From Geosiphon pyriformis uo1 (taxonomy: Eukaryota > Fungi > Glomeromycota): a stretch of DNA of 64,000 nucleotides. A program made the position numbers and the translations under genes. Under the pieces are notes generated by a model that saw only the letters and a program-made list of their open reading frames with translations, was not told the DNA's origin and did not search any database. The DNA is taken from the NCBI GenBank assembly GCA_016748015.1, contig JAAOMT010000135.1:1-64000 (forward strand), read 5' to 3'. Below are positions 663 to 51,304 of the stretch, piece by piece (the first letter of the stretch is position 1; each line of letters starts with the position of its first letter).

Positions 663-806
663 ATTTTACAATAATTCTTCAATAAAAACACAAAGACAAA
701 AAATAGTAAATAATTACAAAAACACCCAAACCCAAAAACAAATAAAAACCCCATATCCAAAAATAATTTTTTTTATTCTTCCTTTTTATAATTAGTCAAT
801 TTTATC

Positions 807-1514
807 ATGATTATTCCCTGAAATATTCAACAAATATCCCAAAAGTTAATGTTAGTCTTGAAAATACTTCCTGACTTATCCATAACGATTAATAGAAGTC
901 AAATTAATTACATTCAAAAAAAAACCACAGCCTCAGTAGTAAATCATTTACAGAACTATTACCCCTATAAAAGAAAAACAAAAAGTCACTCTGAAAATAG
1001 GTTACCAAGACTTTTGAAGCAAGCACTGGAAGAAAATCTTTTAATTGCCCTTATTGACATTCCACCAAATGCTACAATGTAACAAAAACTTCTACTATTT
1101 CTCAATGAACAAAACAATGAACACACTCCTATCTATAAATACTTTCACATTGAAAAGACACTTTATAAACGAAAACTGGAACTTGAAACAACAAATCTCA
1201 CTGCTGAAGCTATACAAAAACAAATTCATAATGAATTCAAAACAGCAGCTGGACCAACAAACACTCGCTACAAACTTAGAGCAGCTTTTAGACTCTATGA
1301 TTTGTTTAATACTTGTGAAAATATTCTACAAAATTTAATACTGTAACCAATAAAAGTCCAATACATTGGCAAACTCACAGAACTGAAATTTCAACAATTT
1401 TCAGACCAGATTACTTCAATTATTTTGGATTACTATCTCAATATCACAGATAGTGCTTGGACTTTGACAGAGCTCAGTCTTGAGGAAGAGATTATGTTAC
1501 CAGTAGAATTTTAG
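807..1514 (+). pseudogene. Family A accessory ORF3 (~235 aa, unknown function), runs through the PPT into the LTR
   Basis: One frame from ATG 807 to TAG 1512-1514, interrupted only by in-frame stops; matches 21440-22146; ends ...ELSLEEEIMLPVEF*. Confidence 0.85.
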
Positions 1515-2485
1515 CTATTAATTAGCATGAAATTACCCTTATAATTCTTATAATTAATTAGTATATTAATATCATTTCAAATTATCATTTATTATTTAAT
1601 CAATTATCACATATCACAATTTAATTAAATAATTCAATTAGTATAACAAAAAGTAGGATGATCAAATTACACAATACCCTGAACTTTGTAACATTTAAAA
1701 ATTCGCTGAAATTTACAGAAATTTGCCGAAATTTATAGAAATTTGCCGAAATTATAAATAGTTTATCCAAATTAATCAATAGTTCAACGAAATAACTTGT
1801 AGTTCATCAAAATGTATTTTTAGTTCACCAAAATTTGAGCAAAGAGAAAAAGTGCAAGTTCATAGACTAGTATTACAACAAGTTGTATAAAAAAAGAGCT
1901 TTTCTCTTCAAGAAAATATATCTTACTTTAGATTTATCACTTAGAACCATTCCTACACACACAAAAAAAAATAAATATCAAATAACTTAAAAAACCAAAT
2001 TCTTTAATTATTGCACTTGGAAAATTCCCAAAACCCAACTAATGTTTTAAAATTGATTAGCTACCAATTTCAGTAAACTGTTAGTGACTTCAGGCCTGAA
2101 TAAAAAACGTTTCCCTTAATAAAAGCCTATTTTTTTTACATTTTTTTTATTTTTTTTTTCTTTTCTTATTACAATCATTAGGGTAGCCTACAGACGAAAT
2201 TCCTGTAGAAGAGTTGACTTTTATAGCAAAGTAACTACACATTTTTTAGTGAGCTTCCAGACGAGCAATTCCTGAGAAAAAGTTGACGTTTACTACAATG
2301 TAACTACATAAAGTAACTGACAAAGAATTGGCTATTCCACGTATAAGCCCAGCAGTTCAAATTATAAGAGATAATTTGAAAATAAATTCAGTTATTGGAG
2401 GTTTAACTTCTTCTAGAAAACGTGAATTTGCAACCAACAGACATTTACAACATTCAAAAAAAGAGACCAAAAACCTCTGGTAACA
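1495..2485 (+). repeat. Family A 3' LTR (A1)
   Basis: TGTTACCAG...CTGGTAACA inverted termini, preceded by purine tract GAGGAAGAG; homologous to 13202-14175 and 22127-23127. Confidence 0.95.
1699..1754 (+). repeat. 10-bp tandem array in family A LTR (GAAATTYRCC-like); also at ~13407-13462 and ~22331-22398
   Basis: aaattcgctg aaatttacag aaatttgccg aaatttatag aaatttgccg aaatta. Confidence 0.85.
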
Positions 2486-3730: not shown

Positions 3731-4444
3731 ATGCATGCAAAAGAGTCCAAAAAGCAGTCAAGAATTAAAACAATAACATATATTCCAGAAAACATTAGTA
3801 AGTTAATCCAACAATTATGTCGAAGCTTACAACAATCAAATTCAGATTTGAAAATTACAATCAATAGTTTCAAGATATCATATAAAAAAATAATAATACC
3901 AAATTTTACGATAAATGAGAAACCTAGTTTTGTACCATATACTACTATTGCCAAAAACAGTAACAGCTTTATCAACAAAATCATTAAAAATTTAGGAATA
4001 GCATTGGACAATACATTGATAACAGAAGAAATAAACATAGTATAATTAATACCAAATATATTTGAACAGCTGAAAGAAAAATTCCCTATTAATTATTGTT
4101 ATTACCAATTAAGAAAACAATTAAATATACAAATATTATACTCAAAAGATTCAGTTAAAGTATTCAACAAAACAACGATACAATAATTAGAAAGTTTTAT
4201 TGGAAAAACCAACAATATACTTCATATAAAAGCTGTTTACAGAATTTTTAAGACTTTCAAAAACTGTCACAAAGTACTATTGAATCCAACTATGAATCTT
4301 ATAACAATTAATAGCATTGGACAATTAACCAATTTACAATTTTAAAATTTACAACAACAAATTAATAATACAGTATTAGATTATTATAGTAATATAGAAA
4401 TCAATGAAAAAATTAACTTTGATTTTGACAGAGCTTAATCTTGA
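3731..4444 (+). pseudogene. Family B accessory ORF3 (unknown function), homologous to A and C ORF3
   Basis: Single frame with in-frame stops: YIPENISKL...YCYYQLRKQL...IKAVYRIFKTF...SIGQLTNLQF...VLDYY; same 714-nt span as 9375-10088. Confidence 0.8.
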
Positions 4445-4552
4445 AAGAAAGAGATAATATTACAGTTTAAGAATTTAATAGGAATTATAAATAATATAAA
4501 TTAGCCAATCATGAAATAGCACAGCAACAATTTATAAAAAAAAATAATTTAC

Positions 4553-4690
4553 AAATAACAGCAAGCACTATTTTACAATAGCAGCAAACACTATTGTGTA
4601 ATAGCAACAAGCACTATTTTACAATAGCAGCAAGCACTATTGTGCAAAAGCAGCAAGCACTATTTTACAATAGCAGCAAGCACTATTTAG
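4553..4690 (+). repeat. 23-bp tandem array (~6 units, CAATAGCAGCAAGCACTATT-TTA/GTG) in family B LTR; also at ~9133-9265 and ~24233-24345
   Basis: Directly visible alternating units. Confidence 0.9.
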
Positions 4691-7330: not shown

Positions 7331-7987
7331 TTAATAAAAAATATGGATTTCAACCATAATATTACTCTCTTTAAAGAGATTGAGCTTCAGCAAAATCAAG
7401 CTATTCATGGAATAATTTATTTGAAGGATTTTGTTTAATTCAAAGCTAACTAGTTTATTGAAGTTTTTGGTAGATAAGATGTATAATATTTGAGATGAAA
7501 TAAGTTTTGTATCCAAAAAACCAAATTTTTGTATAAGAGTTTTGGCTCTTTTAGCAATAGTTAAAACTCTTGAGATATTTAATCATATAATGCCCAAAAT
7601 TTCTGCCTGTATTTCTGAAGTTGTTTTTTTTATTAGTTTTATGTCCTCTATAATTTTACCAAGACAACTATAGAGTTTTAATTGCCTTCCATATGACAAG
7701 TTTTTGTTTATGAGTAAGATTTCTTGGAGTGTTTTTCCAATTGTGCTGAAAGGTAGGAGTATAACTGCTGTTATACTTTCCAACAAATATTTATCCATTT
7801 TGCTACCAATTTTTTTTCTTCTGGTAATGGTTTTCTTGGGTTTAATAACAGTATATGTTCTACTGTTATCAGTTATGGTAGTCTGTTTTCTAATAGTTAG
7901 AGTAGTATTTAGATAGGTTTTGATCCAATACTTATGGAAAGTATAAAAGGCATTTTGAATGTTTTGATCCAAAAAATAATTATTCAT
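7331..7987 (-). pseudogene. Family C accessory ORF3 (C1)
   Basis: ORFs 7583..8083 and 7331..7516 are in one frame; MNNYFLDQNIQNAF...LKLYSCLGKII...ISSQILYILSTKNFNKL. Confidence 0.85.
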
Positions 7988-9374
7988 GTTGATTGAAGAT
8001 ACCTCTGTTTTGGAAATGATGTATTTATTTATACTTGATTTTTGCTGATAATTTGAGTCAGTTTTACTATAACAGGCAACCAATCAAGTTATTTATGATA
8101 TTTTTTGAGTTGTATATCATAAACAGGACAATTATTAAAGATTGTTTCAAATTGATCTTAAAGAATATAAGAACCATTGTTCAAAACTTTGTTGACTAAA
8201 AAGAATTTTTTTTATTGGCTAGAGAATTTATTACCATAGACATTGTTTTTGTCTAAATAATATTCTAATATTAAGTTATCAACACTTAAAAAAAGTGTTT
8301 TATAAGTTTTTTTTTTCTTAAGCTTTTCTTAGAACTGTTTTATTTTTTTAAAGACAATTATTTGTACTTTTACCAATGAGTTAAAAATGGTACCAAGTCT
8401 TTTTTGCAAAATGTTTTTATAATTTTCTATTGTGATTTCTTTAAAAAGTATTGTTTTAATATTAGTTTCTATTGGTAATGTTGCTATGTATCTATTGTTA
8501 TAAAGGTGTTTTCTTAGTATATTTTAATTGTTGATTTCCTGTTTTAATCACAATTAGTCTCTTGTGAGTTCCTCAATTTTATGTGTTGGATATTAATGAT
8601 AATGTACTGAAGGTTTTTTCTTGATGTTGTGATGTAAGTCTTCTCTTTAATTCTAGTTGTCTTTGTATGTTATGTACTCTTTCCCAAAGGCTAATCTAAA
8701 ATCTACCCACTGTTTGGGGTCTTCTCTAAGGCTATCCTTGCAATTGCCTGATGTGTTTCTCTAATTTAGAAACACAGAATATTAATGGCCTTTTCATGAT
8801 TTCCCTAAGTATATAATAAAGCTTTTTCAATTTAATTAGTAACTACATGAATAATCTTGATCAGAGATTATTCTTCTAAAGAGTTCAAAAATAGAATGAT
8901 AGTTTCATTTGCTAAAGAGGGTATATAAATTCTATTGTTAATCTTATAATTGTAATGTTCATTCAATTTATTATTTTTTTTTATTAATTATTTTTGAATA
9001 AGATTTTATTTAGATATTTGTTGTTTTTAGTTAAAGCTTGTTTGATTCTTCATCATTAAAACTATTGTATATATATATAATTATTGTTTTACAAAATAAC
9101 GTCTTGTAATACTCTATTTTTGTTATTTCTAAATAATACTTACTGTTATTGTAAAATAGTGCTTGCTGCTTTTGCACAATAGTGCTTGCTGCTATTGTAA
9201 AATAGTGCTTGCTGCTATTGCATAATAGTACTTGCTGCTATTGTAAAATAGTGCTTACTGTTATTTGTAAATCATTTTTTTTTATAAATTGTTGCTGTGC
9301 TATTTCATGATTGGCTAATTTATATTATTTATAATTCCTATTAAATTCTTGAACTATAATATTATTCTCTTCTT

Positions 9375-10088
9375 TCAAGATTGAGCTCTGTTGAAATCAA
9401 AGTTAATTTTTTTATTGATTTCTATATTACTATAATAATCTAATACTGTATTATTAATTTGTTGTTGTAAATTTTAAAATTGTAAATTGGTTAATTGTTT
9501 AATGCTATTAATTGTTATAAGATTCATAGTTGGATCTAATAATACTTTGTAACAGTTTTTGAAAGCCTTAAAAATTCTGTAAACAGCTTTTATATAAAGT
9601 ATATTGTTGGTTTTTCCAATAAAACTTTCCAATTGTTGTATTGTTGTTTTGCTGAATACTTTAACTCAATCTTTTAAGTATAATGTTTGTATGTTTAATT
9701 GTTTTCTTAATTGGTAATAACAATAATTAATAGGGAATTTTTCTTTCAGCTGTTTAAATATACTTGGTGTTAATTATACTATGTTTATTTTTTCTGTTGT
9801 CAATATATTGTTCAATGCTATTCCTAAATTTTTAATGGTTTTGTCAATAAAGCTGTTACTGTTTTTGGCAATAGTAATATATGATACAAAACTAAGTTTC
9901 TCATTTATTGTAGAATTTGGTATTATTTTTTTTTTATATGATATCTCAGAACTATTGATTGTAATTTTCAAATCTGAATTTGATTGTTGTAAGCTTCAAC
10001 ATAATTGTTGGGTTAGCTTACTAATGTTTTCTGGAATATATGTTATTGTTTTAATTCCTAACTGCTTTTTGGGCTTTTTTGCATGCAT
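9375..10088 (-). pseudogene. Family B accessory ORF3 (B2)
   Basis: Reverse-complement copy of 3731-4444; ORF 9774..9971. Confidence 0.8.
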
Positions 10089-10131
10089 TTTTTTGCTTTG
10101 TTAACTGTTTTTTGGTGTAATTTAAGATTAA

Positions 10132-11511
10132 TTATCTTTTTATATAATGTTCAATTAAAACTACTGGTTTTAAATTTTGTGAAATCTGATCTGATAATAC
10201 TAGTGGTATTTGTGTTTTAATTCTAAGTATTTGTGTTGTTATTACTGGTTTGTTGTAATATAATTTCAGCCAGTTGCTATGTGCTGTTTTTCTTAAAATT
10301 TTTTCATCCAGTCTTAACTTGTATGCTCTATTGCCAAGTATTTCATAAATATAGAATGGTTCATCCCACTTGTGGTCAAACTTTCCACTCCATTGCTTTT
10401 CTGCTTTAGTATGATGCAACAATACTTTGTTTTCTATTTTATAGCTAATTATATTATTTGATAACTGATTATCATGTCTTACTTTTTGTTGTGCTTGTGA
10501 CTATTTAATATTTTGAGCTGCTTTTCTTCTTTTGTTTTCCAAAATTTCCATTAACTCATATGTTTTTCTAAGTATTGTTTTGTGGAATGTTGTTTTTGTA
10601 ATAATTTCATTTGAATAAGTTGGAATAGTAAGTTTTATTAGTAATATGGTTTTTCTTCCATAAACCAATTCAAATGGTGTAAATTTTATAGTATCTTGTT
10701 TTAATGTCTTATATGTTAATAAAACTGCTGGTATGAACAAATCTCATTTTTTTTCATGTTTATTGCTAATTTTGGCTAATGTTTCATATAGTGTATGGTT
10801 AAACCATTCAACTAATTCATTTGTTTAAAGATGGTATGGTAATGATAGTGGTTGTTTAATTCCAAATCTTTGGCTGAGCTCATTTAGTGTACTGTTTACA
10901 AAATGTGTCCTTTGATCTGACAACAATTCTTGTAGACATTTATGATGACAAATTAAATTTTCATGTACAAAGTGGATTACAGATATAGCATCAGCTGTTT
11001 AAATGGCTCTGGCTTCTGGCTATTTAGTGAGGTAATCTACTGCTACTGCAATATAACAATTGTTTCTTGCTGTTATTAGTAATAGTTCAACTAAATCAAT
11101 TCCAATTCTATCAAATAGTTGTCCAACTTTTATGGGTTTTAGTGATTCTGTTGTTTTTGTTTCTCCTTTTCATTGGCACAGGTCACAATTTTTTATGTAT
11201 TGGATAATATCTGAGTGCATTTTTGGCCAATAATAATGACTAGTTGTATGTTGAATAGTTGCTTCTTTTTCAAAGTAGCCTAAATGGATATCTGAATGCA
11301 TGTTAAATAAGATGGTTTCTTTTTCATTTTCGGTTATAACTCTCAATAAATTATCTGGATTTTGTTGATTCTGGTAATAAAGTATGTGGTTTTGAATAAA
11401 ATAATGTTTTAATAATTTCTGGAACTTAATTAGTTTTTTTATTGGTGTGTCTTCATCTAGATGTAGTGTTCTTAAGTATTGGCTAAAATTTTTGTAAAGA
11501 TAATTGTCCAT
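10132..11511 (-). pseudogene. pol: Family B integrase (HHCC, DDE core, GPY/F)
   Basis: ORFs 11170..11511, 10501..10740 and 10132..10422. Confidence 0.92.
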
Positions 11512-11579
11512 TGTTTATGAATTGGTTGTTGTTTAATGGTTTTTATGTGTGTTTTATTCATAACAAGCAGTCAGTATTG

Positions 11580-13201
11580 GTAATATTTTCAGTTCTAGAT
11601 ACATTACCATTAATATTTCCGAGATTTAAGTTTTCTGATATATTAAGATAAGTTGGCTGGAAATTTGGGTAGTTTGGGTAGTTTGCGTTTGTTTGCTGAT
11701 TAGATCCTATGTGGTTTGGGTTTCTCTGAACCAACACATTTTAATTCTACATGGGCTGATTTCGGGGCTCAAGACACCAATTTTGGTTGGTTATCATGAG
11801 CTGTTGCTAATAAGTTCCTTGATTTTGGTATGTAGTGGGGTATTGACATGATATTGGTGTGTATTGATTCCTAGACATTTGAAGTGGTATGTAATAATTA
11901 TTCTCACATGCCTTGTGCATCATTCGTGTTTGACATTGACTAATCAAATGTTCTACGCATTTACAAAAATAACAGACATGTATTTCTGTTCTAAAGTCCT
12001 GGTATGACGAGCAATTATTTTGACTGCTGCTGAATTCTAGGTTGTGTCTCTGAAGTGGTTAGTATGTATTACTTCTTCCTGGGTCCAAGATGAAGTAACT
12101 TTCTATTTTCTTAGAAAGTTCCTCTCCTAATTGTGCTATTTTCTTCTCTAAAGTTTCTGTCTTGTTTTGCTTAATCACCATGTTAATTATTTGACTATAG
12201 TAAACTTTTTTTTCAGCCAATTCAAGGGCTCTGGCAAGCATAATGGCTTTTGGTAATGAATCAAAGTGGGCAGAACATACTCTTCCTAAAATTCTGCTTT
12301 TTAATCCTTTAATAAATTGATTTAAAACCTGAGGATTGGTATAGTATCTTTGCTCAATTGTTTCAATCTGATGGTGAATTCGATTGAATTGAACAAGATA
12401 TTGGGTAACAGTTTTATCTGTATCTTGCTTGATAGTATTGAATTTGTTCTGCAGTTGGATTACAGTGTTTGGGTCACTAAAATACTTTAAGAGTGTGTCT
12501 TTGAATTTGGCAAAGCTTGTGGGTTTTGTTTTCAAGCTTTAATACTATGAGTCAGCAGTGTCTTTTAGGAAGAAAAATAACATTTGGATTGCTCTTTGAT
12601 CATTCCAGTTATTTGTTTAGATGGCTTTTTGTGCTTCTCTGAGCCATGTGTGCACGTCCATTTTTTTTTCTTCTTCTCCTGAGAAATCTGTTAATCGTGC
12701 AATGTATGGTGTGGCCATTTTGTCATTGTTTCTTGCTGGTGGGTTTATTGGTCTAAGAGGAAATGGAATGATATTTCCTTGAGCATTACTAAAGATGACT
12801 TCTCTTATATTCAGTTTTTCTTCTTGATCATGAATTTCTTGGTTTCTGGACTGGCTGCTTGTTCCAATGACTGGTCTTGTGCTTGTTTTTTTACTGGTTT
12901 TTTCAGATTCTGATTCAGACTCCTTTTCATGGTTTTCAAATCTCGCTCTGAATTTTGGTTGAAAAAAGGGTTTTTGGAATAGTGATAAATATCCTTCTGT
13001 AATTGGTATATCTCCCCAATTGTGTTGTTTGAGCTTCTCAGTGTAATTAGGAGTTCTCGGCATTTGTGGGGTTGATATGGATGATGATGCAGCTTCTAAT
13101 GGGAGTTGGATTTTATTATCTAGGGAAAAATAGTAAGATCTTTCTTCTGGTGAATGAAAACATTGTTTCTTTACTAATTGTGTGACGTTTTTCTTGGGCA
13201 T
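11580..13201 (-). pseudogene. gag: Family B gag, 3' part (capsid-like region, CCHC knuckle, Q/N/P-rich tail); 5' part at 23128-23512
   Basis: ORFs 12617..13201 and 12059..12535 (FSGEEE...WLREAQKA; QFIKGL); ...LGTPTQ/PKKNVTQ joins across A2. Confidence 0.85.
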
Positions 13202-14177
13202 TGTTATCAGTAGAATTTTAGCTATTAATTAGCAGAAAAATTACCCTTATAATTCTTATAATTAATTAGTATATTAATATCATTTCAAATTATCATTTAT
13301 TATTTAATCAATTATTACATATTACAATTCAATTAAATAATCCAATTAGTATAACAGAAAGTAAGATGATCAAATTACACAATACTCTGAACTTTGTAAC
13401 ATTCTAAAATTTGCCAAAATTTACAGAAATTAGCCGAAATTTATAAGAAATTTGCCAAAATTATGAATAGTTTACCCAAATTAATCAATAGTTCAGCAAA
13501 ATAACTTGTAGTTCATCAAAATGTATCTTTAGTTTGCTGAAAGTTGAGCAAAAAGAAAAAGTGCAAGTTCATAGACTAGTACTACAACAAGTTATATAAA
13601 AGAAGAGCTTTTCTCTTCAAGAAAATGTATTTTACTTTAAATTTATTACTTAGAACCATTCCTATACACACAAAAAGAAATAAATATCAAATAATTTGAT
13701 AAACCAAATTTTTTAATTATTGCACTTGGAAAATCCCCAAAACCCAACTAATGTTTTGAAATTAATTAGCTATCAATTTCAGTAAACTGTTAATGACTCA
13801 GGCCTGGATAGAAAACATTTCCCTTGATAAAATCCTATTTCTTTTACATTTTTTTATTTATTACAATCATTAAGGTAGCCTACAGACAAGATTTCTGTAG
13901 AAAAGTTGACTTTCACAGCAAAGTAATTACACATTTTTAGTGAGCTTCTAGATGAGCAATTCCTGGGAAAGAGTTGACATTTACTACAACATAACTACAT
14001 AAAGTAACTGGCAAAGAATTGGCTATTCCACTATAAGCCCAGCAGTTCAAATTATAGGAGATAATTTGAAGATAAATTCAGTTATTGGAGGTTCAACTAC
14101 TTCTAGAAAATGTGAATTTGCAACCAACAGACAGTTACAACATTTAAAAAAAGAGACCAAAAACCTCTGGTAACATT

Positions 14178-14195
14178 TGGTGCTCTCCCATGGAA
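14178..14195 (+). promoter_or_regulatory. Primer-binding site of family A (TGGTGCTCTCCCATGG...)
   Basis: TGG two nt after the LTR end, complementary to a tRNA 3' CCA; tRNA identity not assigned. Confidence 0.8.
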
Positions 14196-14221
14196 ATAAC
14201 ACAACAACAACAAACTTCAAA

Positions 14222-17200: not shown

Positions 17201-20200
17201 GGCATTGATCAATAAAGCCACCCAAGAAGATGTCCACCAAATGAAAGAAGCTGAATACATTGAGTATATCATAGAATTAGCTGGATTTGATTATGAAGAT
17301 GAAGTAGAAACCTACTACCAAATTGCAAGCCACACATATCCGACCAAAGAAGCTCAAATTCAACAATTAGAGCAAATAAACATTTAATTGTGTGAAAAAT
17401 GTGTTATGTCTTGTGATGACCAATGGTGTTTAGAATGTTATGCTCTTAGCATTCCTCTGCCAGATGAGAATAATGAAAATGAAATCGAATTTGGAGTATT
17501 TGAACTAGTAGAAGAACTACCAACCACTCCCATCTATCTTCTTAAAAAGCAACCATCTCTACAACTTAAATATTTTGACAACTATGGCCAAGGAATTAGA
17601 CCAGAAAAAACACACGAAATTGATGCTAGATATGACCTAAGATACCCAGGAAAAAATACTTTGGTTCTCCAACCAAAGTTCTTGACAAAAATCAATCTTA
17701 AAATTGCTCTTGAAATTCCACCAGGAGCAATGGTTCAAATTGCCTTCAGATCATCATTGGCAAGCAAAGAAATCAATATTAGAGGAGGAGTTATAGATGC
17801 AAGATACACTGGAGACATTACCATCATGTTGCAGAATGAAACAGACAAACCATTTAAAATTGAACATGCTGAAAAAATTGCTCAAGCAATTTACTTACCC
17901 TTAATCAACATTTCGGGTTTACAATCAATAAACAACAGAGAACAATTGGAAAAAAGTGAAAGAGAAACTCAAAGTTTTGGTTCAACTGGACGATTTACAG
18001 TTCCAGTAAACATAGTTTTTAATACACAAAATGAATCTCACCAGATTCTTTAACTTCTCCAGCCAATTATTATTTCACTTTTTGGAGAACATCACGAAAT
18101 TTACACTTGCTCAAAACCCACCACTACACAACAAATCTTTGAATCCAATAAACAAATCTGTTTGAAGCATGAAATCTCAATTCCAAACGTTTATATTCCC
18201 AAAAGAATGAAAAAATTTCAAGTTACATTTTACAACCCCAATAATTATTCTATTGTCTTATTAAACAAAGTAGAAATTGGAATCATACACAGCAATATCT
18301 TTCAAAATGAAAACCCTCAAATTGTCTCTAATTTTATCGAAATTGTAAGGCACACTCTACTCCCAAATCCAAATATTATTTTCACTACTGAAAACTACCA
18401 CCTTTTGGAAAAAAAACTTGCTCGAATCAACATGGGTCCCTTAAAACCTCAACAACAAAGACAATTAAAACAATTGATAGCTGAATTTGCAGATATATTT
18501 GCAAAAGACAACAATGACCTGGGAAAAATGGATATTGTTCAACATCAGATTCATACAGAAGATGCTTCACCAAAACATTAGCAAGCTTACAGAGTGCTAC
18601 CTGTCAGCCACCAATTCATCAGAGAAGAAATCCAGAGAATGCTCAATAACAGATTGATTCAACTATCAAGAAGTTCTTGGGTCTTACCAGTAGTCTTTGT
18701 CAAAAAGAAAAATGGAAAAATCAGATTTTGTGTTGACTATCACCAATTGAACAGTGTGACAATTGGAGATGCCTACCCTCTTCCAAGAATTAATAACATG
18801 CTAGATGCTCTAGAAAAAGCCAAGTTTTTTTCAACTTTAGACTTGGAAAGTGGATACTGGCAAGTCAAAATGGACCCAAAAGACCGACCCAAAACAGCAT
18901 TTACCACCCAGGGAAGAAACTATGAGTTCAATATTATGCCTTTTGGACTCTGCAATACACCAGCAACATTCCAGCAACTCATGGATGTTGTATATGAAAG
19001 ACTCTTGTGGCAATCAGTAGTTGTCTATCTTGATGATACTGATGTATATTCACCAAACTTTAAGACTCATCTTATCCACCTACGAAAAGTTTTTCAACAA
19101 TTATGGAAAGCAGAATTGAAGTTAAACATTGAAAAATGTCACTTTGGAAAAACAAGCTTAATCTTCCTCAAACACATTGTTAGTAAAGATGGAGTCAAAC
19201 CAAATCCTGGAACAATCAGTGCTGTCAAAAACTTTCAAACTCCCAGAAATACCATGGAACTACGAAGATTTGTAGGATTAGCCTCTTACTATTGAAAATT
19301 TATAAAAGGATTCTCAAAAATTGCCAAACCACTTAATTATCTTACCAACAAAAACATACCATACAAATAAACTGAAGAACAACAAAAAGCTTTTGAAATT
19401 CTCAAAACAAAATTGACAACAGTGCCAGTTTTTGCTTACCCAGACTTCAACAAATGATTTCAATTAGCCACTGATGCTTTATATATAGCATTTGGTGCCA
19501 TCTTATCACAATTAGATGAAAATAACCAGGAACAAGTTATCGCCTATGCCAGTAGAACACTCAAGCCAACAGAACTTAAATATGGCTTAACTGAATTGGA
19601 AGCTGTTGCAATCATTTGAGTTCTCAAACACTTTCAACAATACCTAAAGAATGGAAAAAAATTTGACATAATAACTGACAATATTAGTCTCAAATAGCTC
19701 AATAAAAAAAAAACTGAACAAAGTGCCAAACAGTCTTGATGGAATGATTTTCTAGCAGACTACAGATATATTGTACACCACAAACCAAGAAAACTACATA
19801 CTAATGTTAATAGTCTCTCAAGAATGAGACAACATTAATACCAACAACAATTTCACCACAACTTACCAACCTACCAACAAAATAACCAAACAAAAATGGA
19901 TCCCAGAAAATTACAGCAATCTTAAAAATTATTTGGAGACTCTTACCATGCCAGAAAATTGGTCTCCAAGTGAAAAACATTATTTACAACACCAATCAAA
20001 GCAATATTTCATACATCACAACAAAATCTATTATAAAAATCACAGAAACCCAAACCAACCACTCAAATTAGTACAAGAGAATGAAAAAGAAACAATTTTA
20101 TATAACATACATACAGATCAATCTTCAGCACACTTGAAAAGAGATGGAACAATTCAAAAAACTCTGGAACATTATTTTTGGTCTCACATGCAGAAAGATA

Positions 20201-21282
20201 TTTGACAATATGTAGAATCTTGTGATAGTTGTCAAAGAAAAGGAGGAATTCACTCCACAGAACCTTTAAATCCAATCAAAGTTGGACAATCTTTTAACAG
20301 AGTTGGAATTGATTTAGTCAGACTATTACCTATCACAACCCAAGAAAATCATTATATTGCAATTGCAGTGGATTATCTTACCAAATAGCCTGAAACTAAA
20401 GTCATCTAAAGAGCAGATGCAAAATCAGTAGCAAATTTCATCTATGAAGACATTATTTGTAGACATGGATGTCCAATTGAACTTTTATCTGATCAAGGAA
20501 CACATTTTGTAAACAACTTGATACAAAAAATTTGTAAATGATTCAATGTTAAAAGATCTTTATTATCACCTTATTACCCTCAAACAAATGGACTTATAGA
20601 ATGTTTCAACAGAACATTGTGTGAATCTCTAGCCAAAGTCTTAACAGACTTTGAGCAGAAATAGGATATCTTTATTCCATCAGTGTTACTAGTATACAGA
20701 ACGCTAAAACAAAATACTATGAAACATACACCATTTGATCTTACTTATGGAAGGACAACAACATTACCAATTAATTTCACAGTGGAAACATATCCTGTGC
20801 AACCAATTAATGAAAAGAACTTGCAAGAAACACTCCAAAGAAGGGCCTATACTTTTTTTAGTACACTGGAAAGAAAGAAAAAAATCGCAGCAACTCATAT
20901 TGAACATTTCCAAGCTTAACAAAAAGAAAGACACAACAACAAATTACCACCTATAACCAACGAATTTAAAATAGGAAATAAAGTTCTCTTACACAGAACT
21001 AAGGCTGAAAAACAATGGAATGAGAAATTTGAAAACAAATGAGATGGACCATTTTATATTCATGAAATTCTAGGCAATGGATCATACAAGTTAAGACTTG
21101 ATGACAAAATACTAGCAAAAGTTGCACATAGAGACAGATTAAAATACTATCATTCCAGAAACAATCCTGAACCATTAATTTCACAAATTGGTACACATTC
21201 CCCTTTAATTAATCTTGAAAATATTCTCTGAAATTTAGAACCAATAATTATAATAGAACAACAACCAAACTTAAATACTTAA
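14222..21282 (+). pseudogene. pol: Family A Gag-Pol polyprotein (originally one ORF)
   Basis: CCHC knuckle CYYCGITGHWKRDC (15645) is in frame with protease ILDS (15990..16646), dUTPase and RT (18594..19295: RFCVDY, YPLPRI, MPFGL, VYLDD); RNase H and integrase follow. Confidence 0.93.
17590..17995 (+). pseudogene. dut: dUTPase domain inside family A Pol, between protease and RT
   Basis: ORF 17388..18053 contains degenerate dUTPase motifs I-V: ARYDL, RSSLA, GGVIDARYTGDITIML, EKIAQAI, RETQSFGSTG. Confidence 0.92.
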
Positions 21283-21439: not shown

Positions 21440-22146
21440 ATGATTATTTCTCGAAATATTCAACAAATATCCCAAAGTTAATGTTAGCCTTGAAAATACT
21501 TCCTGACTTATTCATAACAATTAATGGAAGTCAAATTAATTACATTCAGAAAGAAACCACAGCCCCAGTAGTAAATCATGCACAGAACTATCACTCTTAT
21601 AGAAAAAATACAAGAAGTTACTCTGAAAATAGGTTATTAAGACTTTTGAAGCAAGCACTAGAAGAAAATCTTTTAATTGCCCCTATTAACATTTCACCAA
21701 ATACTACAATACAACAAAAACTTCTACTACTTTTCAATGAACAGGACAATGAACACACCCCTATCTATAAATACTTTCATATTGAAAAGACACTTTATGA
21801 ATGAAAACTGGAACTTGAAGCAACTAATTTTACTCCTGAAGCTATACAAAAACAAATTCACAATGAATTTAAAACAGCAGCTGGACCAACAAACACTTGC
21901 TATAAACTTAGAACAGCTTTTAGACTCTATAATTTGTTTAATACTTGTAAAAATATTCTACAAAATCCCATACTGCAACCAATGAAAGTCCAATACATTA
22001 GCAAACTTACAAAACTGAAATTTCAACAATTTTCAGACCAGATTACTTCAATTATTTTGGATCACTATTTCAATATTACAAATAGTGCTTGGACTTTGAC
22101 AGAGCTCAGTCTTAAGAAAGAGATTATGTTACCAGTAGAATTTTAG
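21440..22146 (+). pseudogene. Family A accessory ORF3 (A2)
   Basis: ORFs 21481..21804 and 21934..22146; copy of 807-1514. Confidence 0.85.
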
Positions 22147-27560: not shown

Positions 27561-27574
27561 CAGAACTACTTTAA

Positions 27575-32734: not shown

Positions 32735-33391
32735 TTAATAAAAAGTATAAGTTTCAACCATAATATTATCCTCTTCAAAGAGATTGAGCTCTGACGAAAT
32801 CAAGCTATTTATATTGTAATCTATTTGAAGAGTTTTATCTAACTCAAAGCTAACTAGTTTGTTGAAGTTTTTTGTGAATAGAGTATATAATACTTGAAGT
32901 GAAAAGAGTTTTGTATCCAAGAGACCAAATCTTTGTATTAGAGTTTTGGCTCTTTTAGTAATAGTTAAAACTCTTGAGACATCTAACTGTATAATGCCCA
33001 AAATTTCTGCCTGTATTTTTGAAGTTGTTTTCTTCATGAGTTTCATATTCTCTATGATTTTACCAAGATGACTATAGAGTTCTAATTGCCTTCTATATAA
33101 CAAGTTTTTGTTTATGAGTAAGATTTATTGGAATGTTTTTCCAATTGTGTTAGAAAGTGGGAGTATAGCTGCTGTTATACTTTCTAATAGATACTTATCT
33201 ATTTTACTACCAATTTTTTTTCTTCTGATAATGGTTTTTTTTGGTCTAATAATAGTATGTGTTCTACTATTATCAGTTATGATGGTTTGTTTTCTAATAG
33301 TCAAAGTAGCATTTGGATAGTTCTTGATCTAATACTCATAGAGAGTATAGAAGACATTTTGAATGTTTTGATTCAGAAAATAATTGTTCAT
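32735..33391 (-). pseudogene. Family C accessory ORF3 (C4)
   Basis: ORF 32735..33103 plus upstream in-frame sequence from MNNYF. Confidence 0.85.
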
Positions 33392-36409: not shown

Positions 36410-37066
36410 CTAATAAAAACTATGGGTTTCAACCATAACATCATCCTCTCCAAAGAAATTGAGCTCCGGCGAAATCAAGCTATTTATGAGATAGTCTATG
36501 TGAAGAGTTTTGTCTAACTCAAAATTAACTAGTTTGTTGAAGTTTTTTGTGGATAGAGTATATAATACTTGAGGTGAAATAAGTTTTGTATTCAAGGGAC
36601 CAAATCTTTGTATAAGAGTTCTGGCTCTTTTAGCAATGGTCAAAACTCTTGGGACATCTAATCATATAATGCCCAAAATTTCCCCTTGTATCTCTGAAGT
36701 TGTTTTCTTCATGAGCTTCATGTCTTCTATGATTTCACCAAGACAACCATAGAGTTCTAGTTGTCTTCCATATGACAAGTTTTTGTTTATGGGCAAGATT
36801 TCTTGTATCATTTTTCCAATTGTGCTGGAAGGTGAAAGTATCGCTGCTGTTATGCTTTTCAGCAGGTATTTATCCATTTTGCTACCAATTCTTTCTCTTC
36901 TGGTAGTTGTTTTCTTTGGTCTGATAACAGTGTGAGTTCCACTGTTGTCTGTTATGGTGGTTTGTTTTCCGATAGTCAGAGTAGCATTTGGATAGTTTTT
37001 GATCCAGTACTTATGGAGAGTATAGAAAGCATTTTGAATGTTTTGATCCAGGAAATAATTGTTCAT
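36410..37066 (-). pseudogene. Family C accessory ORF3 (C3, ~218 aa, one internal TGA), runs through the PPT into the LTR
   Basis: ORFs 36662..37162 and 36410..36643 are in one frame; ends ...ELNFFGEDDVMVETHSFY*. Confidence 0.88.
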
Positions 37067-37167: not shown

Positions 37168-40100
37168 TCATTTGTGATATTTCTTGAGTCGCGTGCCATA
37201 AACAAAGCGATCACTGAAGATTGTTCCATATTGATCTTGTAGGATATATGAACCATTGTTCAAAACTTTGTTGACTATAAAAGGTCTTTTCCAGCAGCTG
37301 GAGAATTTATCACCATAGACATTGTCTCTGTCTGAACAGTATTTCAAAACTAAGTTATCAACACTTAAGGAAAGTGTTTTATAGGTCTTTTTCTTTTTGA
37401 GCTTCTCTTGGAACTGTTTTATCTTTTCAAAGGCAATTATCCATGCTTCTACCAATGAGTCAAGAATGATACCAAGTCTTCTTTGCAAAATGTCCTTGTA
37501 ATCTTCTATTGTTATTTTTTCAAAAGGTATTGTTTCTATATTTGTTTCTATTGGTAGAGTTGCCATTCGTCCATAAAGCAGATAAAAGGGTTCATAACTT
37601 GTTATGTCATGATTCACAGTTTTGTAGGCAAACAAAACTGAAGGCAATACTTTGTCTTATAGGTTGGTTTTTTCACTGGTTTTGGCTAGGGTTTCACATA
37701 GTGTTCTATTAAAACGTTTCACTAGGCCATTTGTTTGGGGGTAATAAGAGGAAAAGAGTTTATGACGTATTCCCATTTTTCTGCAAAGTTTTTCAACCAG
37801 TGTACTGAGAAAAGCTCTTCCTCTATCAGATAAAAGTTCTTTGGAACAGCTGTGGTGACAGATAATATCTTCATAAATGAAATTGGCAATTAAGACTGCT
37901 GTTTGATCTGGAGTGGCTCTTGCTTCTACCCACTTTGTAAAATAGTTGGTAGCTGTGATAATGTATCTGTTGCCATCAGGAGTTATTGTTAAAGATCTAA
38001 CAACATCTATACCAATTCTGTCAAATGGTTGACCAACAGAGATCAGGTGGATATTTTTCTTGTGATTGGGTTTTTCTCTTCTTTGGCAGGTATCACAGGT
38101 TTTGATGTATTCAGCAATGTCTTTTCCCAAGGTAGGCAAATAATAGCAAGCTAAAGTTTTCTGGATTGTTTTTGTTTTTCCAAAGTGTTCAGCTAATGGA
38201 TCAGTGTGCATATTGTAGATCACAATTTCTCTTTCTTCAAATCTGATGACTCTCTGGGGGCAGTCAGGATCTTTTCTATTTCTTTTATATAACTGGTTCT
38301 GGCGAATTAAATAGAAATTTGATTGTTTGCACAAATGTTCTCTTTGTTGTCGAGTATAGTCTGGTGGGTATTGTCCTTTACCCAAAAATTCTATTAAGAC
38401 AGAGTAGTTGTTCAAGTCCATTATCGTGTTTGTTTGTGGGGGAGTTACAAATAATTAAGTTGGTTTGGTTTGAGAGGGTTTTACTATCACTAGATGATAA
38501 GTCTGGAGAGAGCGTCGGTGTTTTAATAATTAGCTCCTTTGCGGTGTTGAATGTTATAATTGAATTTATTCAAGTGGAGTATCCAGCGAGTTATCCGTTT
38601 ATGTTCCAGGTTTCTTTTGTTGCATAGCCAAACCAAAGCTTAATGATCTGTTACCACCAAAAATTTTACACTTTTAAGATATTTGTCTCAGTAACTGGTA
38701 GCCCAAACTACTGCTAAGCATTCTTGCTCTGTGACTGAGTAGTTCCTTTCTGCTGGTGTGAGAGTTCTACTGGTATATGCTATGGTGTGTTCTCTGTTAT
38801 CTTCATCTTTCTGGGAAAGAACAGCACCAAGTCCATAGCCAGATGCATCAGTATGAAGGATAAAAGGTTGATCCAGATTAGGTTGCATGAGGATAGGTTC
38901 TGTAACCAGCTTTTCCTTCAGAATTTTAAATGCTTTTTGTTGATGAGTGCCCCAGTGATAATTGATGTTTTTCCTAAGTAGCTGATTAAGAAGAGTGGCA
39001 ATTTTGGAGAAATCTTTGACAAACTTGCAGTAATAAGAGGCCAAACCAAGAAAAGAGCATAGTTCATGAACATTCATTGGTTGTCTAATGTTTTAAACTT
39101 TTTCAATTTTGGCTGGATCAGGGAAGATTCCATCTTTTGTAATAAAATGGCCAAGGAACTGAGTGGATTGACATCCAAAGAATGATTTAATTGGATTGAT
39201 CTTGAGGCCAGCATTTCTAAGGAGGTCAAAAACCTTTTGCAAATGTTCAAGGTGTTCATCTCAAGTTTTTGAGTATACTATTATGTCGTCCAAGTAAACT
39301 AGAACAAAGTTTTCTTTTACTAATTCAAATACTTTGTTTATTAAGCGTTGAAAGGTGGGAGGAGCATTTGTGAGACCAAAAGGCATGACTGTGAATTCGT
39401 AGGTGCCATACTTGGTGATAAAGACAGTTTTTTTTCTGCTTTCTGGATCCATCTCTACTTGCCAGAATCCAGCAGTTAAGTCAATGGTTGAGAAGAAAGC
39501 AGCACCATGGAATTGGTCTAGCATTGCATCAATCTTGGGAAGTGGGTACATGTCTCTTTCAGTAATGGCATTTAATTGGCGATAGTCAACACAAAAGCAT
39601 AGGGTTCCTCCTTTCTTGGATACCACTACAATTGGGAATGCCCATTCACTCTTGGTTTCCTGTATGAATCCAAGAGTTTTCATTCGGGTTATTTCCTTTT
39701 TAATAAACTCATCATTGCACCAGTTGGATTGATAGGGCTTCAAATGGATGGGGCAAGTTTCTTTGGTGATGATGGTGTGTTGTATTACATGTGTATGTCC
39801 AGGAGGTTCACCTTTTTTTGAGACAACTGGGCTGTTTCTAGTCAGCAGGTTTTCAATGTTTATCTTTTTTTCTTCTGGAGAGGGTTTTCTTTGTTCTACA
39901 ACCAGTAATTGGATTTCAGGTGGTTCATTTTCAAAGGACTTTTGGACTTCTTTTATTTCCTCACGGGGTATCAAGCTGATTGGTTCCCAATCTTTGTAAT
40001 AGATCAGGCAGGACATGCATTCATTGCTAGGAGAATACAATGGTTTGTCGTACCAGCACTGGACACAAGGACCATGCCACCAATAACTGTATTTGGCTTT

Positions 40101-43292: not shown

Positions 43293-43423
43293 GGTCAACA
43301 ACCAGGTCAATGATCAGGTCAATGATCAGGTCAATGATTAAGTCAACAATCAGGTCATTGATTAGGTCAATGATTAGGTTAATGATCAGGCCAACGGTTA
43401 GGTCATTGATCAGGTCAACAATC
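43293..43423 (+). repeat. 12-bp tandem array (GGTCAAYGATCA) in family C U3; present in every C LTR that retains this region
   Basis: About 11 units here, about 6 at 36281-36352; also ~7192-7272, 29499-29590, 50513-50595, 56887-56958, 57112-57194. Followed in element sense by a GCTATATAAG TATA-like box. Confidence 0.92.
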
Positions 43424-46400
43424 ACTATCTAAAAATAGGGTGGCTAATTTATATGACATCAGTGGCTAATACATGTGATAACTAATAAAAACTATGGGTT
43501 TCAACCATAACAATATGTTCTCTGCTATTTTCATTTTTTTGTAAAAAGACAGCACCAAGTCTATAGCCAAATGTATTAGTGTGAAGAATGAAAGATTGGT
43601 CCAAATCAGATTGCTTGAGAGTTGGTTTAGTAACAAGTTTTTTTTTTAGAATTTCAAAAACTTTTTGTTGATGAGTACTTCAGTGATAATTGACATTTTT
43701 CTTGAGTAATTGATTAAAAGAAAAGGTGATTTTAGAGAAATCTTTGATAAATTTGTAATAGTAAGAAGCCAAACCAAAAAAAGAGCATAGTTTAGGAACA
43801 TTTATTGATTGTTTAATGTTTTAAACTTTTTCAACTTTAGCTGAGTCAGAGAAAATTTTGTCTTTTGTAATAAGATGACCAAGAAACTGGGTAGATTGGA
43901 ATCTAAAGAAAGATTTAATTGGGTTGATCATAAGACCAGTATTTCTGAGCAGGTCAAAAACCTTCAAGATGTTCATCCCAGATTTTTGAGTAGATCATTA
44001 TATTGTTTAAGTAGACTAGAACAAAGTTTTTTTTTACTGATTCAAATACTTTGTCAATTAGCCATTGAAAGATAGGAGGGGTATTGGTAAAACCAAAAAA
44101 CATGACTGTGAATTCATAGGTACCATACTTGGTGATAAAGGCAGTTTTCTTTCTGCTTTCTAAATTCATCTTTACTTGCCAAAATCCAGCAGTTAAGTCA
44201 ATGGTTGAGAAGAAAACAGCACTATTGAATTTATTTAACATTGTATTAATTTTGGGGAGTGGATACATGTCTTTTATAGTAATGGCATTTAATGAGTGAT
44301 AGTCAACATAGAAGCATAAGGTTCCACCTTTCTTGGATATCACTATAACTGAAAAAGCCCATTTACTCTTGGTTTTTTGTATGAATCCAAGATTTTTTAT
44401 CTGGTTTATTTCTTTCTTGATAAACTCATTATTGTGTTAATTGAATTAATAAGACTTCAAATGGATGGAATGAGTTTCTTTAGTGGTAATAGTGTGTTGT
44501 ATCATATGAGTTCATCCAGGAGTATCACCTTCTTTTGAAATAACTGGGCTATTTTTAGCCAACAGATTTTCAATGTTCATTTTTCTTTCTTCAAAGGAAG
44601 GTTTTCTTTGTTCTACAACTAGTGATTGGATTTCAAGTAGTTTATTCTCAAAGAACTTCTGTACTTTTTTTAGTTCTTCTCTGGGTATTAAACTAATTGG
44701 CTTCCAATCTTTGTAATAGATCAGACAGGACTTGTATTCATTACTAGAGAAATACAAAGATTTATTGCATTAGCATCTGGCACAAGGGCCATGTTACCAA
44801 TAACTGTATTTTGTTTTCTTGCCAGATTTTCTATCAAAGATTTTTCTGAGGATATTATAGTAGGGCCAGCAGATCAGCTTGCCATTTACCATAATTTCTT
44901 TTTTGTCAGCTTTAACATTATCCAGTGGCTTGCCATTGCTAGTGAAAATAGTATAGATGAGTTTAGCAGTTTCTTTTTGTTCTTCTTAATCTTCTTCTTT
45001 ATTGCTTTTATCATCATCTAATTCATCTGATCGTTCTTTTTCTTGATTCTGCTTGGATACTGGAGAAGTTGTCCAATGATAGCATTTAATTACAATGGGC
45101 TTTTCACCACATCTGATGGTTACAAAGTTCATAGTTAAGTAATGCTTTGGCTTTTTTAAGCCACTTATTGCCAACAATTATGGTATACTCTTTTGCTTTA
45201 AATACTTCTATGTCAGTTTTAATGCTGATGCTATTAATGTGAACAGGAACAGCTTTGGCTATGTCCAGATCTTTTTTTTTGTCACCATATACATTGTTTA
45301 TTGGTCTAGTTGAAGGTTTATCAATTTTTCTGCCTATTGCTTTAAGGAAATGTTTGGCTATAATGCTAACAGATAATTCACTGTCTAAAATCAGATCAAT
45401 AAAATAACCAGCTATTTGGGCTTTGCAGATTAAAGGAGTGACATTGCTGTTGTCAACAAGTCCAGCTTGGTGAGGGTGCTTGTTGATTTTTGGTGTCTTT
45501 TTCTTTGAAATCATGATTTATGAAGATTTTTTCTAAACTGTGGATGGGTTATTAACTGGCCAATAGTGATATGTGCTGGAGTTTCTATAAGATCTTTTAC
45601 AACAAAATAGGGTCCAGATTTTTGTACAATTTTTGGGAGTTCTAACTTTGAAGAATTCTTAAAAACTTTAGTCTTTGGTGGCTCATTGTTATCAGCAGTA
45701 GAAGTTGAGGCTTTGTTGAGATCTAGAATGAAATCAACATTGGCTTTTTTCTTCTTTTTTGTTAAGTCAGAAGTGTTAATTGCCAGTTCATTCATATCAT
45801 AGTCATTATCAGTTAGGTTAAAAGCATAAAAGAGATTTTCTTCTAATTGACTTGTACTCTCATCCTTTGAAGGTGCACCTACTAGTTTAAAGGCTAATAA
45901 ACAGTAGTTTCAACTAGGAGATTCTCTTTAAAGAAATTGATGTTGGTATAATTGGGTTTTTGATTAGGGATATTGTTGTTAATAGTTCTGTTGTTTTAAT
46001 TATCATTGTTTCTAAGAGCTGGAGGTGGCAAAGGAAAATTGTTGCAATCTCTTGAGAAATGTCCAGTTAATTCACAATGGTAGCACACAGATGGGCCATG
46101 ATTTTGCTGTCTTTGGTAAAAAAACTGCTGAGGCTGATTGAAATGTGGTTCAAATTTAGGTTTTTGTGGTTGCTAATTGTCTCTGACTGCTTGGACTAAT
46201 GGTTCTAATAGCCAAGCAAGATTTGTTGTAAGTCTATCTATCAATTGTTTATTGGGGTCTTGAGTTTGGGCAGCAAAAGAAGTAGCAGTCATTTGTGAAA
46301 CAGGAGCCATAACAGAAGCAAAAGCAAAAACTGGAAGAATAGATTCCAGATACATTCTTTGATTATCTTCTATTCTCTGAGCAAGTTCAATAGCCATATC

Positions 46401-50680: not shown

Positions 50681-51304
50681 CTAATAAAAACTATGAGTTT
50701 CAACCATAATATCATCCTCTCCAAAGAAATTGAGCCTCAGCAAAATCAAGCTATTTATAGTGTAATCTATTTGAAGAGTTTTATTTAACTCAAAGCTAAC
50801 TAATTTATTCAAGTCTTTTATAGATAGAGTGTATAATACTTGAGACAAAATGAGTTTTGTATCTAAGAGACCAAATCTTTGTATTAGAGTTTTGGCTCTT
50901 CTAGCAATGGTTAAAACTCTTGCCTGTATCTCTGAAGTTGTTTTCTTCATGAGCTTTATGTCATCTATGATTTCACCAAGGTGACCATAGAGCTCTAGTT
51001 GTCTTCCATATGACAAGTTTTTGTTTATGGGTAAGATTTCTTTAATTGTTTTTCCAAGTGTGGTAGAAGGTACAAGTATCACTGCTGTTATACTTTCTAG
51101 CAGATATTTATCCATTTTGCTACCAATTTTTTCTCTTCTAGTAGTTGTTTTCTTTGGTCTAATAACAGTATGTGTTCCACTGTTATCAGTTATGGTGGTC
51201 TGTTTTTCAATGGTCAAAGTAGCATTTGGATAGTTTTTAATCCAATACTCATGGAGAGTATAAAAGGCATTTTGAATGTTTTGATCCAGAAAATAATTGT
51301 TCAT
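50681..51304 (-). CDS. Family C accessory ORF3 (C5), open frame with a short in-frame deletion relative to C3
   Basis: Uninterrupted ORF 50681..51400; likely start MNNYFLDQN at 51304. Confidence 0.8.
   Translation of the reverse strand: MNNYFLDQNIQNAFYTLHEYWIKNYPNATLTIEKQTTITDNSGTHTVIRPKKTTTRREKIGSKMDKYLLESITAVILVPSTTLGKTIKEILPINKNLSYGRQLELYGHLGEIIDDIKLMKKTTSEIQARVLTIARRAKTLIQRFGLLDTKLILSQVLYTLSIKDLNKLVSFELNKTLQIDYTINSLILLRLNFFGEDDIMVETHSFY

What the first reader, a model, noticed from the sequence alone, without database searches (positions are those of the whole stretch)
807..1514. A conserved accessory ORF3 in the env position of three divergent Gypsy families
Seen in sequence: every A, B and C copy with a 3' end (807-1514, 21440-22146; 3731-4444, 9375-10088; 7331-7987, 32735-33391, 36410-37066, 50681-51304) has a separate sense ORF of ~220-240 aa between integrase and the 3' LTR. 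The families look unrelated at DNA level, but the proteins align by eye. N-terminus: IIPxNIQQISQKL...PDLSITING / YIPENISKLIQQL...SDLKITINS / YFLDQNIQNAFYTL...PNATLTIGK. Core: YKYFHIEKTL...LRAAFRLYDLF...VQYIGKLTELKFQQF / YCYYQLRKQL...IKAVYRIFKTF...INSIGQLTNLQF / LELYGCLGEII...LTIARRAKTLIQRF...PQVLYTLSTKNFNKL. There is no signal peptide or transmembrane run, so it is not env-like, and it is not a chromodomain. Inference: an old, selected, mostly helical accessory protein. The Y-x-x-[IL]G...R-x-Y-x-x-F spacing loosely recalls DUF1016_N/YhcG-N-type helical nucleic-acid-binding modules (speculative).
Basis: partly seen in the sequence, partly recalled or inferred. Interest (0 to 1): 0.85.

Follow-up and report, generated by a model that had tools for sequence, protein, structure and literature searches.

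The report
Unknown accessory gene of fungal retrotransposons
A lineage of jumping genes in what is likely the fungus Geosiphon carries, behind a separately encoded integrase, a conserved extra gene of no known family whose small soluble protein likely helps the element switch on its own promoter, although that function is untested.

Summary
The gene is real. All eight copies lie between integrase and the 3' LTR, but 7 of 8 carry stops; intact copies exist elsewhere in Geosiphon pyriformis. A and B ORF3s are clearly homologous (hhalign 97.9%). C is only weakly linked: local tests fail, an end-to-end test gives z about 3-4, and its divergence tracks its integrase. In C, ORF3 is as constrained as integrase (0.38 vs 0.39); A and B pairs show neutral decay. 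A metagenome contig has the same layout with a 30%-identical ORF3. The three families are one lineage, in which integrase is also a separate cistron with its own ATG. There is no membrane segment and no significant Pfam, PDB or fold match. The DUF1016_N likeness stays below significance, and an HhH-glycosylase lead failed. Best guess (0.4): a DNA-binding activator or anti-silencer of the element's own LTR, which carries family-specific repeat arrays (CpG-decayed in A and C) in a CpG-stripped genome. Main rival (0.25): an RNA-level helper for the polycistronic transcript. This scan noted similar ORF3s and split integrases in other genomes; identity with this family is unconfirmed. Verdict: a new protein family in a known kind of slot.

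The parts
807..1514 (+). ORF3, family A copy 1 (235 codons, 3 stops); runs through the PPT and ends 20 nt inside the 3' LTR
21440..22146 (+). ORF3, family A copy 2 (frameshift near start, 1 stop) in full-length element 13202-23127
3773..4438 (+). ORF3, family B copy 1 (probable start now ATA; 3 stops)
9375..10046 (-). ORF3, family B copy 2 (4 stops)
7331..7987 (-). ORF3, family C copy 1 (1 stop)
32735..33391 (-). ORF3, family C copy 2 (2 stops)
36410..37066 (-). ORF3, family C copy 3 (1 stop); ends 31 nt inside the 3' LTR; element 35762-43512
50681..51304 (-). ORF3, family C copy 4 (open, 11-codon deletion)
663..806 (+). Integrase-ORF3 spacer of A1: 144 nt, 3 G, no ATG, pyrimidine tract and one AG just before the start (possible splice acceptor or promoter; inferred)
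1482..1494 (+). Polypurine tract of A1, read in frame inside ORF3
1495..2485 (+). 3' LTR of A1 (TG...CA)
1699..1753 (+). A-family LTR tandem array (10/20-bp period); units vary CG/TG/CA at two positions, i.e. decayed CpGs; upstream of a TATA-like box
4548..4688 (+). B-family LTR tandem array, 23 bp x 6
43293..43424 (-). C-family 5' LTR tandem array, 12 bp x about 10; units vary CG/TG/CA/TA
19839..19895 (+). G-free 57-nt spacer between RNase H stop and integrase ATG in A2
38422..38489 (-). Spacer between RNase H stop and integrase ATG in C3 (also C2 35396-35459, C4 52614-52678); integrase out of frame with RNase H
11512..11542 (-). G-free 31-nt spacer joining the end of gag directly to the integrase ATG in B2 (no PR-RT-RH)
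17388..18053 (+). dUTPase domain in pol of element A2
   Evidence: Pfam E 2.4e-20

Best explanation
ORF3 is a conserved, soluble accessory gene of about 220-240 codons in one fungal Ty3/Gypsy lineage, kept under selection behind a separately encoded integrase, and its protein most likely enters the nucleus and binds the element's own LTR repeat array to activate or un-silence transcription (inferred, untested). Shown: the position, the A-B-metagenome homology, selection in C equal to that on integrase, the absence of a membrane segment, a basic patch at residues 37-74 in A, C and both full-length metagenome proteins, and a different tandem array in the LTR of each family. Predicted at low confidence: an N-terminal helix plus beta-hairpin, then a helical bundle. 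Inferred: expression from a subgenomic or spliced RNA, nuclear import, DNA binding, the arrays being its target, and counteraction of CpG methylation (works like VANC of VANDAL, or foamy-virus Tas, the latter recalled).
For: Homology and age: A-B hhalign 97.9%; 55 hits among 1.84 billion representatives; metagenome contig L001 has RT-RH, integrase, spacer and ORF3 crossing the PPT. Selection: observed/expected nonsynonymous change 0.38-0.75 in 6 of 6 C pairs; C3-C4 0.38 vs integrase 0.39 and PR-RT 0.34; shifted-frame controls 1.09-3.22. Between families, codon position 2 is the most conserved (0.54-0.57 vs 0.37-0.43 at position 3). ORF3 diverges faster than integrase but in the same order (16-32% vs 35-58%), as expected of a protein tracking a fast-changing target. 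The most basic 20-mer (net +5 to +7) starts at residues 37-55 in 6 of the 7 full-length proteins examined. LTR arrays are family-specific and lie upstream of a TATA-like box in all three; the A and C units show CpG decay. Window CpG observed/expected is 0.09. TEs in the related Rhizophagus are heavily CG-methylated (10.1101/2021.03.30.436303, passages). VANC targets evolve as tandem repeats (PMC8756742, passage).
Against: No known DNA-binding family matches: DUF1016_N scores 12.9 bits against a cut-off of 32.8, and the profile tests are borderline. Both AlphaFold models are poor (mean pLDDT 47.8 and 42.3). Tandem repeats in LTR U3 regions are common and usually serve host factors (own knowledge), so the arrays are weak support. 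The B array shows no CG/TG/CA alternation. B's most basic stretch lies elsewhere (residue 165). The acidic tail is partly a by-product of the PPT codons, so it is no evidence of an activation domain. A1-A2 and B1-B2 show no selection (1.16, 1.46), though their integrases do not either (0.95, 1.94). I first met the promoter-regulator idea in an earlier AI note, which is not independent support.
Confidence: 0.4

Rival explanations
1. RNA-level trans-activator: ORF3 lets the polycistronic genomic RNA (gag-pol / integrase / ORF3) be translated by reinitiation, like caulimovirus TAV/P6, or exports the unspliced RNA, like Cer1 CERV or Rev.
For: Integrase follows a stop and has its own Met at a homologous position in A2, C2, C3, C4, B2 and L001 (6 of 6 junctions examined), with 24-68 nt G-poor spacers. 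Four of the six have no AG in the last 30 nt, so no splice acceptor lies there. ORF3 is the last cistron behind a 41-316 nt spacer, like TAV behind RT with its own promoter (PMC5902531, passages). CERV precedent: PMC10309623, abstract.
Against: No Pfam hit to any TAV-type family. Earlier AI notes describe split-integrase Gypsy elements explained by plain termination-reinitiation (unchecked). In A2 and L001 the spacer is in frame, so readthrough could also serve. A protein acting on the conserved ribosome might be expected to diverge more slowly than ORF3 does.
Confidence: 0.25
2. Integrase or particle cofactor: ORF3 joins the pre-integration complex for nuclear import or target choice, in place of the missing chromodomain.
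For: The integrase ends in an SH3-type module with no chromodomain. Non-autonomous B2 keeps gag, integrase and ORF3 while lacking PR-RT-RH. ORF3 and integrase diverge in the same order.
Against: Co-retention follows from linkage to the 3' end and the PPT. The related Ginger1 transposase targets CCGG by itself (PMC2836005, passages). No interaction data exist.
Confidence: 0.15
3. C ORF3 is an unrelated gene that occupies the same slot, so there are two accessory families, not one.
For: All local profile tests are null. No C protein is among the 55 hits of the A+B profile.
Against: End-to-end profile score: 0 of 300 column shuffles and 0 of 300 block shuffles reach it. The N-terminal third (0 and 2 of 300) and the helical core (1 and 9 of 300) support it separately, and it survives removal of the PPT-coded tail. 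C2 and C4 are the best non-A/B hits in a six-frame scan of the window (iE 0.008, 0.13). The predicted secondary structure has the same order.
Confidence: 0.2
4. Remnant of an envelope gene or a captured host enzyme (HhH DNA glycosylase-like).
For: It sits in the env position. The ESM Atlas feature search for C gave HhH-bearing clusters at 0.90-0.93 (family on 17-23% of members, 137-161 shared features).
Against: No membrane segment. No HhH motif in 8 of 8 proteins; against 22 Ogg-HhH-type proteins, 132 and 17 of 150 shuffles reach the score.
Confidence: 0.04

Closest known systems
Sense additional ORFs between pol and 3' LTR (aORF-3S; plant Athila/Bagy2 env-like genes; PMC7264820)
   Same: Same slot and sense, present in all copies, conserved like the core genes.
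   Different: Fungal host, no transmembrane segment, no sequence match; ends across the PPT inside the LTR; preceded by a separately encoded integrase.
VANC anti-silencing proteins of Arabidopsis VANDAL DNA transposons (PMC8756742)
   Same: Proposed mode: element-encoded factor paired with family-specific tandem repeats in a methylating host.
   Different: Retroelement rather than DNA transposon; no sequence match found; binding and demethylation untested.
Caulimovirus TAV/P6 (PMC5902531) and Cer1 CERV (PMC10309623)
   Same: Accessory protein of a reverse-transcribing element; TAV is likewise the last cistron of a polycistronic RNA.
   Different: No homology detected; ORF3 is much smaller than TAV (size recalled); activity untested.
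DUF1016_N / YhcG N-terminal domain (PF17761; PMC1189080)
   Same: Helical; similar spacing of Y-x-x-I-G and R-x-x-Y/F motifs; best Pfam hit of one A protein (E 0.12).
   Different: Far below the cut-off; profile tests borderline; no attached nuclease domain. The paper read calls this domain helical and of unknown structure, so even a link would not give a function.

Membership tests
Env / env-like ORF3 | Signal peptide or transmembrane segment | tested here: not met
   Highest 19-residue hydropathy 1.32 in 9 proteins
Env / env-like ORF3 | Match to a viral fusion or envelope family | tested here: not met
   No such family among Pfam hits at E up to 1 for 15 proteins
Chromovirus chromodomain | Chromodomain after integrase | tested here: not met
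   No chromodomain hit in ORF3 or in 3 integrase tails
Sense additional ORF (aORF-3S) | Between pol and 3' LTR, same sense, in most copies | tested here: met
   8 of 8 window copies and L001
Sense additional ORF (aORF-3S) | Conserved like the core genes | tested here: met
   C3-C4 0.38 vs integrase 0.39; codon-position pattern
Sense additional ORF (aORF-3S) | Expressed from a spliced or subgenomic RNA | not testable with these tools
DUF1016_N (PF17761) | Score above Pfam cut-off 32.8 bits | tested here: not met
   Best 12.9 bits, 1 of 15 proteins
DUF1016_N (PF17761) | Remote profile or fold relationship | tested here: inconclusive
   Core vs 71 YhcG N-domains: 3 of 300 column shuffles but 15 of 300 block shuffles; local 24 of 150; hhalign 0.46%; models too poor
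HhH-GPD / Ogg-HhH glycosylase | HhH motif and profile similarity | tested here: not met
VANC-like anti-silencer | Family-specific tandem repeats in the element | tested here: met
   common in LTRs, so weak
VANC-like anti-silencer | Sequence-specific binding and loss of methylation in trans | not testable with these tools
   Needs experiment
TAV-like reinitiation factor | Last cistron of an RNA with consecutive long ORFs | tested here: met
TAV-like reinitiation factor | Sequence homology to TAV/P6 | tested here: not met
   No such Pfam hit
TAV-like reinitiation factor | Trans-activation of downstream ORF translation | not testable with these tools
   Needs reporter assay

The most novel reading that the evidence does not exclude
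A fungal Gypsy lineage is organised like a polycistronic pararetrovirus (gag-pol / integrase / ORF3) and encodes its own trans-activator of a new protein family. It is either the first retrotransposon-encoded, family-specific anti-methylation factor in fungi, binding CpG arrays in its LTR, or a TAV-like reinitiation factor that lets the separate integrase be made; either could explain how LTR elements came to cover 41% of the Geosiphon genome.
Probability: 0.3. Interest if true: 0.85.

Novelty: new variant of a known kind. Interest (0 to 1): 0.52.

Why it matters
The function of most extra ORFs in LTR retrotransposons is an open question (PMC7264820), and none of my nine literature searches turned up one described in Glomeromycota. 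This family gives a small, soluble, testable protein, with intact copies and candidate target sequences per family, in a host whose genome is 41% LTR element (PMC11952901) and nearly stripped of CpG. It also reclassifies well over a hundred annotated Geosiphon 'hypothetical proteins' as transposon genes.

Tried and rejected
No whole genome was held, so genome-wide DNA and subfamily dN/dS were not possible. RNA runs: none was listed; this says nothing on expression. Fold searches with low-confidence models: best Z 6.3 and 6.1, none at 8 or more, among 48,161 chains; BFVD gave no match at E 0.001. PDB sequence profiles: 1 hit at E 1.4 and 0 hits. PHROGs best E 0.0012 to an unnamed family in 1 of 15 proteins; NCBIfam gave only scattered weak hits, the best FtsQ in 6 of 29 members, not followed. 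Viral contigs: no relative in 3 scans. Phage genomes: none convincing. 201 bacterial genomes: 2 partial hits at E 1.6e-4 and 9e-4, not examined. Homodimer prediction: no answer (score 0.00, alignment not used). ESM Atlas answered only for C; the A-type query could not be run. HhH glycosylase and env readings were rejected. A conserved splice acceptor before ORF3 was not supported: A has a pyrimidine tract plus AG, L001 has the tract but no AG in the last 30 nt. hhalign in global mode gave unstable scores and was not used.

Full report
Setting. The window is a stack of nested, decayed Ty3/Gypsy elements (gag, protease, RT, RNase H and integrase hits). All named homologues of the three ORF3s are annotated hypothetical proteins of the fungus Geosiphon pyriformis: 130 hits for C, 206 for A, 5 for B, with 120, 120 and 5 listed. 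The host is therefore likely G. pyriformis. CpG observed/expected is 0.09 in the window, and singleton changes among C copies are mostly C>T and G>A (65 of 105).

Observation. A sense frame lies between the integrase stop and the PPT at all eight places, but 7 of 8 carry 1-4 stops and the eighth has an 11-codon deletion. Intact copies exist elsewhere: 21 of the 120 listed C hits and 65 of the 120 listed A hits are full-length by a length-and-terminus rule (these are the annotator's gene models). B probably starts at 3773, where both window copies have ATA and relative P0244 has Met. In A, C and the metagenome copy the frame runs through the PPT and stops 20-32 nt inside the LTR (the LTR start in L001 is inferred by analogy). 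In B it stops at or before the PPT.

Homology. A and B align over 198 columns (prob 97.9, E 6e-13; up to 58 bits by HMM). An A+B profile against 1.84 billion representatives gave 55 hits. Of 20 mostly distant hits looked up, 17 are further Geosiphon proteins, forming at least two more subfamilies, and 3 are unnamed metagenome proteins. One of these lies on contig L001, which reads RT-RNase H, stop, integrase, a 316-nt spacer, then a 230-aa ORF3 crossing a PPT. Its integrase is 58% and its ORF3 30% identical to A, so the arrangement is older than these families; the host of L001 is unknown. C is the weak link. Local tests against A, B or the deeper non-C profile are null (10 of 150 shuffles), and no C protein is among the 55 hits. 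An end-to-end profile alignment written for this purpose scores above 300 of 300 column shuffles and 300 of 300 block shuffles (z 3.9 and 3.0; the A-B control gave 13 and 11). It holds without the PPT-coded tail (0 and 2 of 300) and separately for the N-terminal third (0 and 2) and the core (1 and 9). Five C copies score 0.7-10, against at most -8.9 for 34 unrelated window chunks. In a six-frame scan of the window, C2 and C4 are the best hits outside A and B. C is also the outlier in integrase (35-42% vs 50-58%; ORF3 16-23% vs 28-32%; the A ORF3 used there was copy A1). I put C's homology at about 0.8.

Selection. Using separate transition and transversion rates, observed/expected nonsynonymous change is 0.38-0.75 in all 6 C pairs. 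C3-C4 gives 0.38, against 0.39 for integrase and 0.34 for PR-RT; shifted frames give 1.09-3.22 in 4 controls. A1-A2 (1.16) and B1-B2 (1.46) show no constraint, as do their integrases (0.95, 1.94): these pairs differ only by decay after insertion. CpG hypermutation was not modelled. Between A, B and L001, identity by codon position is 0.39-0.49 / 0.54-0.57 / 0.37-0.43 against 0.28-0.34 from composition.

What the protein is. It has no membrane segment and a basic patch starting at residues 37-55 in 6 of 7 full-length proteins, B excepted. AlphaFold models are poor (pLDDT 47.8, 42.3), but both give the order helix, beta-hairpin, loop, then six or more helices, with only A residues 110-150 above 70. 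Pfam, PHROGs, NCBIfam, PDB sequence and fold searches gave no identification. Tested against 71 YhcG N-domains (74 of the 80 loci were sliced; 3 with stops were dropped), it is borderline: hhalign 0.46%, 4 of 60 nulls; 3 of 300 column but 15 of 300 block shuffles; 24 of 150 locally; null for C. The ESM Atlas lead to HhH glycosylases for C failed: no HhH motif and chance-level scores against 22 proteins.

The element around it. These are one lineage with an unusual layout. A stop follows RNase H within a few codons of the same motif, and the integrase has its own Met at a homologous position, in A2, C2, C3, C4 and L001. B2 goes from gag straight to that Met and has no PR-RT-RH. The spacers are 24-68 nt with 0-4 G; they are in frame in A2 and L001, so readthrough or a chance stop cannot be excluded there, but they are out of frame in C and B. 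The integrase ends in an SH3-type module without chromodomain, and A carries a dUTPase. Each family has its own tandem array in the LTR upstream of a TATA-like box: 10/20 bp in A, 23 bp in B, 12 bp in C. The units vary CG/TG/CA at two positions in A (9 units) and one in C (28 units), the mark of decayed CpGs; B shows no such variation.

Mechanism. I commit at 0.4 to a nuclear DNA-binding activator or anti-silencer of the element's own LTR. The basis is a soluble helical protein with a basic patch, diverging faster than integrase, alongside family-specific arrays in a host lineage that methylates its transposons (Rhizophagus), with VANC as precedent. Every functional step is inferred, and LTR arrays are commonplace. 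The main rival (0.25) is an RNA-level factor, because the RNA is polycistronic and ORF3 is its last cistron, as for TAV or, for export, CERV. An integrase cofactor gets 0.15.

Literature seen. PMC7264820: parts 1-2 of 3, the whole main text. Passages only: PMC11952901, PMC1189080, PMC2836005, 10.1101/2021.03.30.436303 (118), PMC8756742, PMC5902531, PMC13465315, PMC3248453. Abstract and outline: PMC10309623. Searches showed no description of this ORF in their listings. The Geosiphon genome papers did not appear in them, repeat databases could not be searched and no supplements were read, so an existing library annotation cannot be excluded. Foamy-virus Tas is recalled, not read.

Earlier scan notes (unchecked): similar soluble ORF3s after integrase in other genomes, one with the same promoter-regulator guess, and split integrases in other fungal Gypsy elements. 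Look-ups by sequence found no look-alike, so whether they are this family is open.

Verdict. A real, selected, undescribed protein family in a known kind of slot, inside an unusual polycistronic Gypsy lineage; function unproven. New variant of a known kind, interest 0.52.

Noticed in passing
window 19839-19895, 35396-35459, 38422-38489, 52614-52678, 11512-11542; L001 775-798: Integrase is a separate cistron with its own ATG after a short G-poor spacer in all 6 junctions examined.
   Followed up: partly
window 8495-24436 (minus strand; A2 inserted at 13202-23127): Element B2 is non-autonomous: gag, integrase and ORF3, with no protease, RT or RNase H.
   Followed up: partly
window 17388-18053: dUTPase domain inside pol of family A, before RT.
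   Followed up: no
   Followed up: partly
window 47301-49627, 57494-59908, 59938-62332: Three copies of a 2.4-kb repeat, two of them ending in poly(A), with long decayed frames resembling the ORF1 part of a non-LTR element; not identified.
   Followed up: no
window 25100-29400: Decayed LINE-like stretch (ORF1, endonuclease-like and start of RT-like frames, judged by eye from translation).
   Followed up: no
window 14176-14200, 42750-42773, 23570-23594: Primer-binding sites differ between families (A and C share TGGTGCTC, B reads TGGTAAAC); tRNA not assigned.
   Followed up: no
L002 398-811: A 137-aa frame with no Pfam hit lies directly upstream of the ORF3 homologue instead of an integrase tail; possibly a second accessory ORF.
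   Followed up: partly
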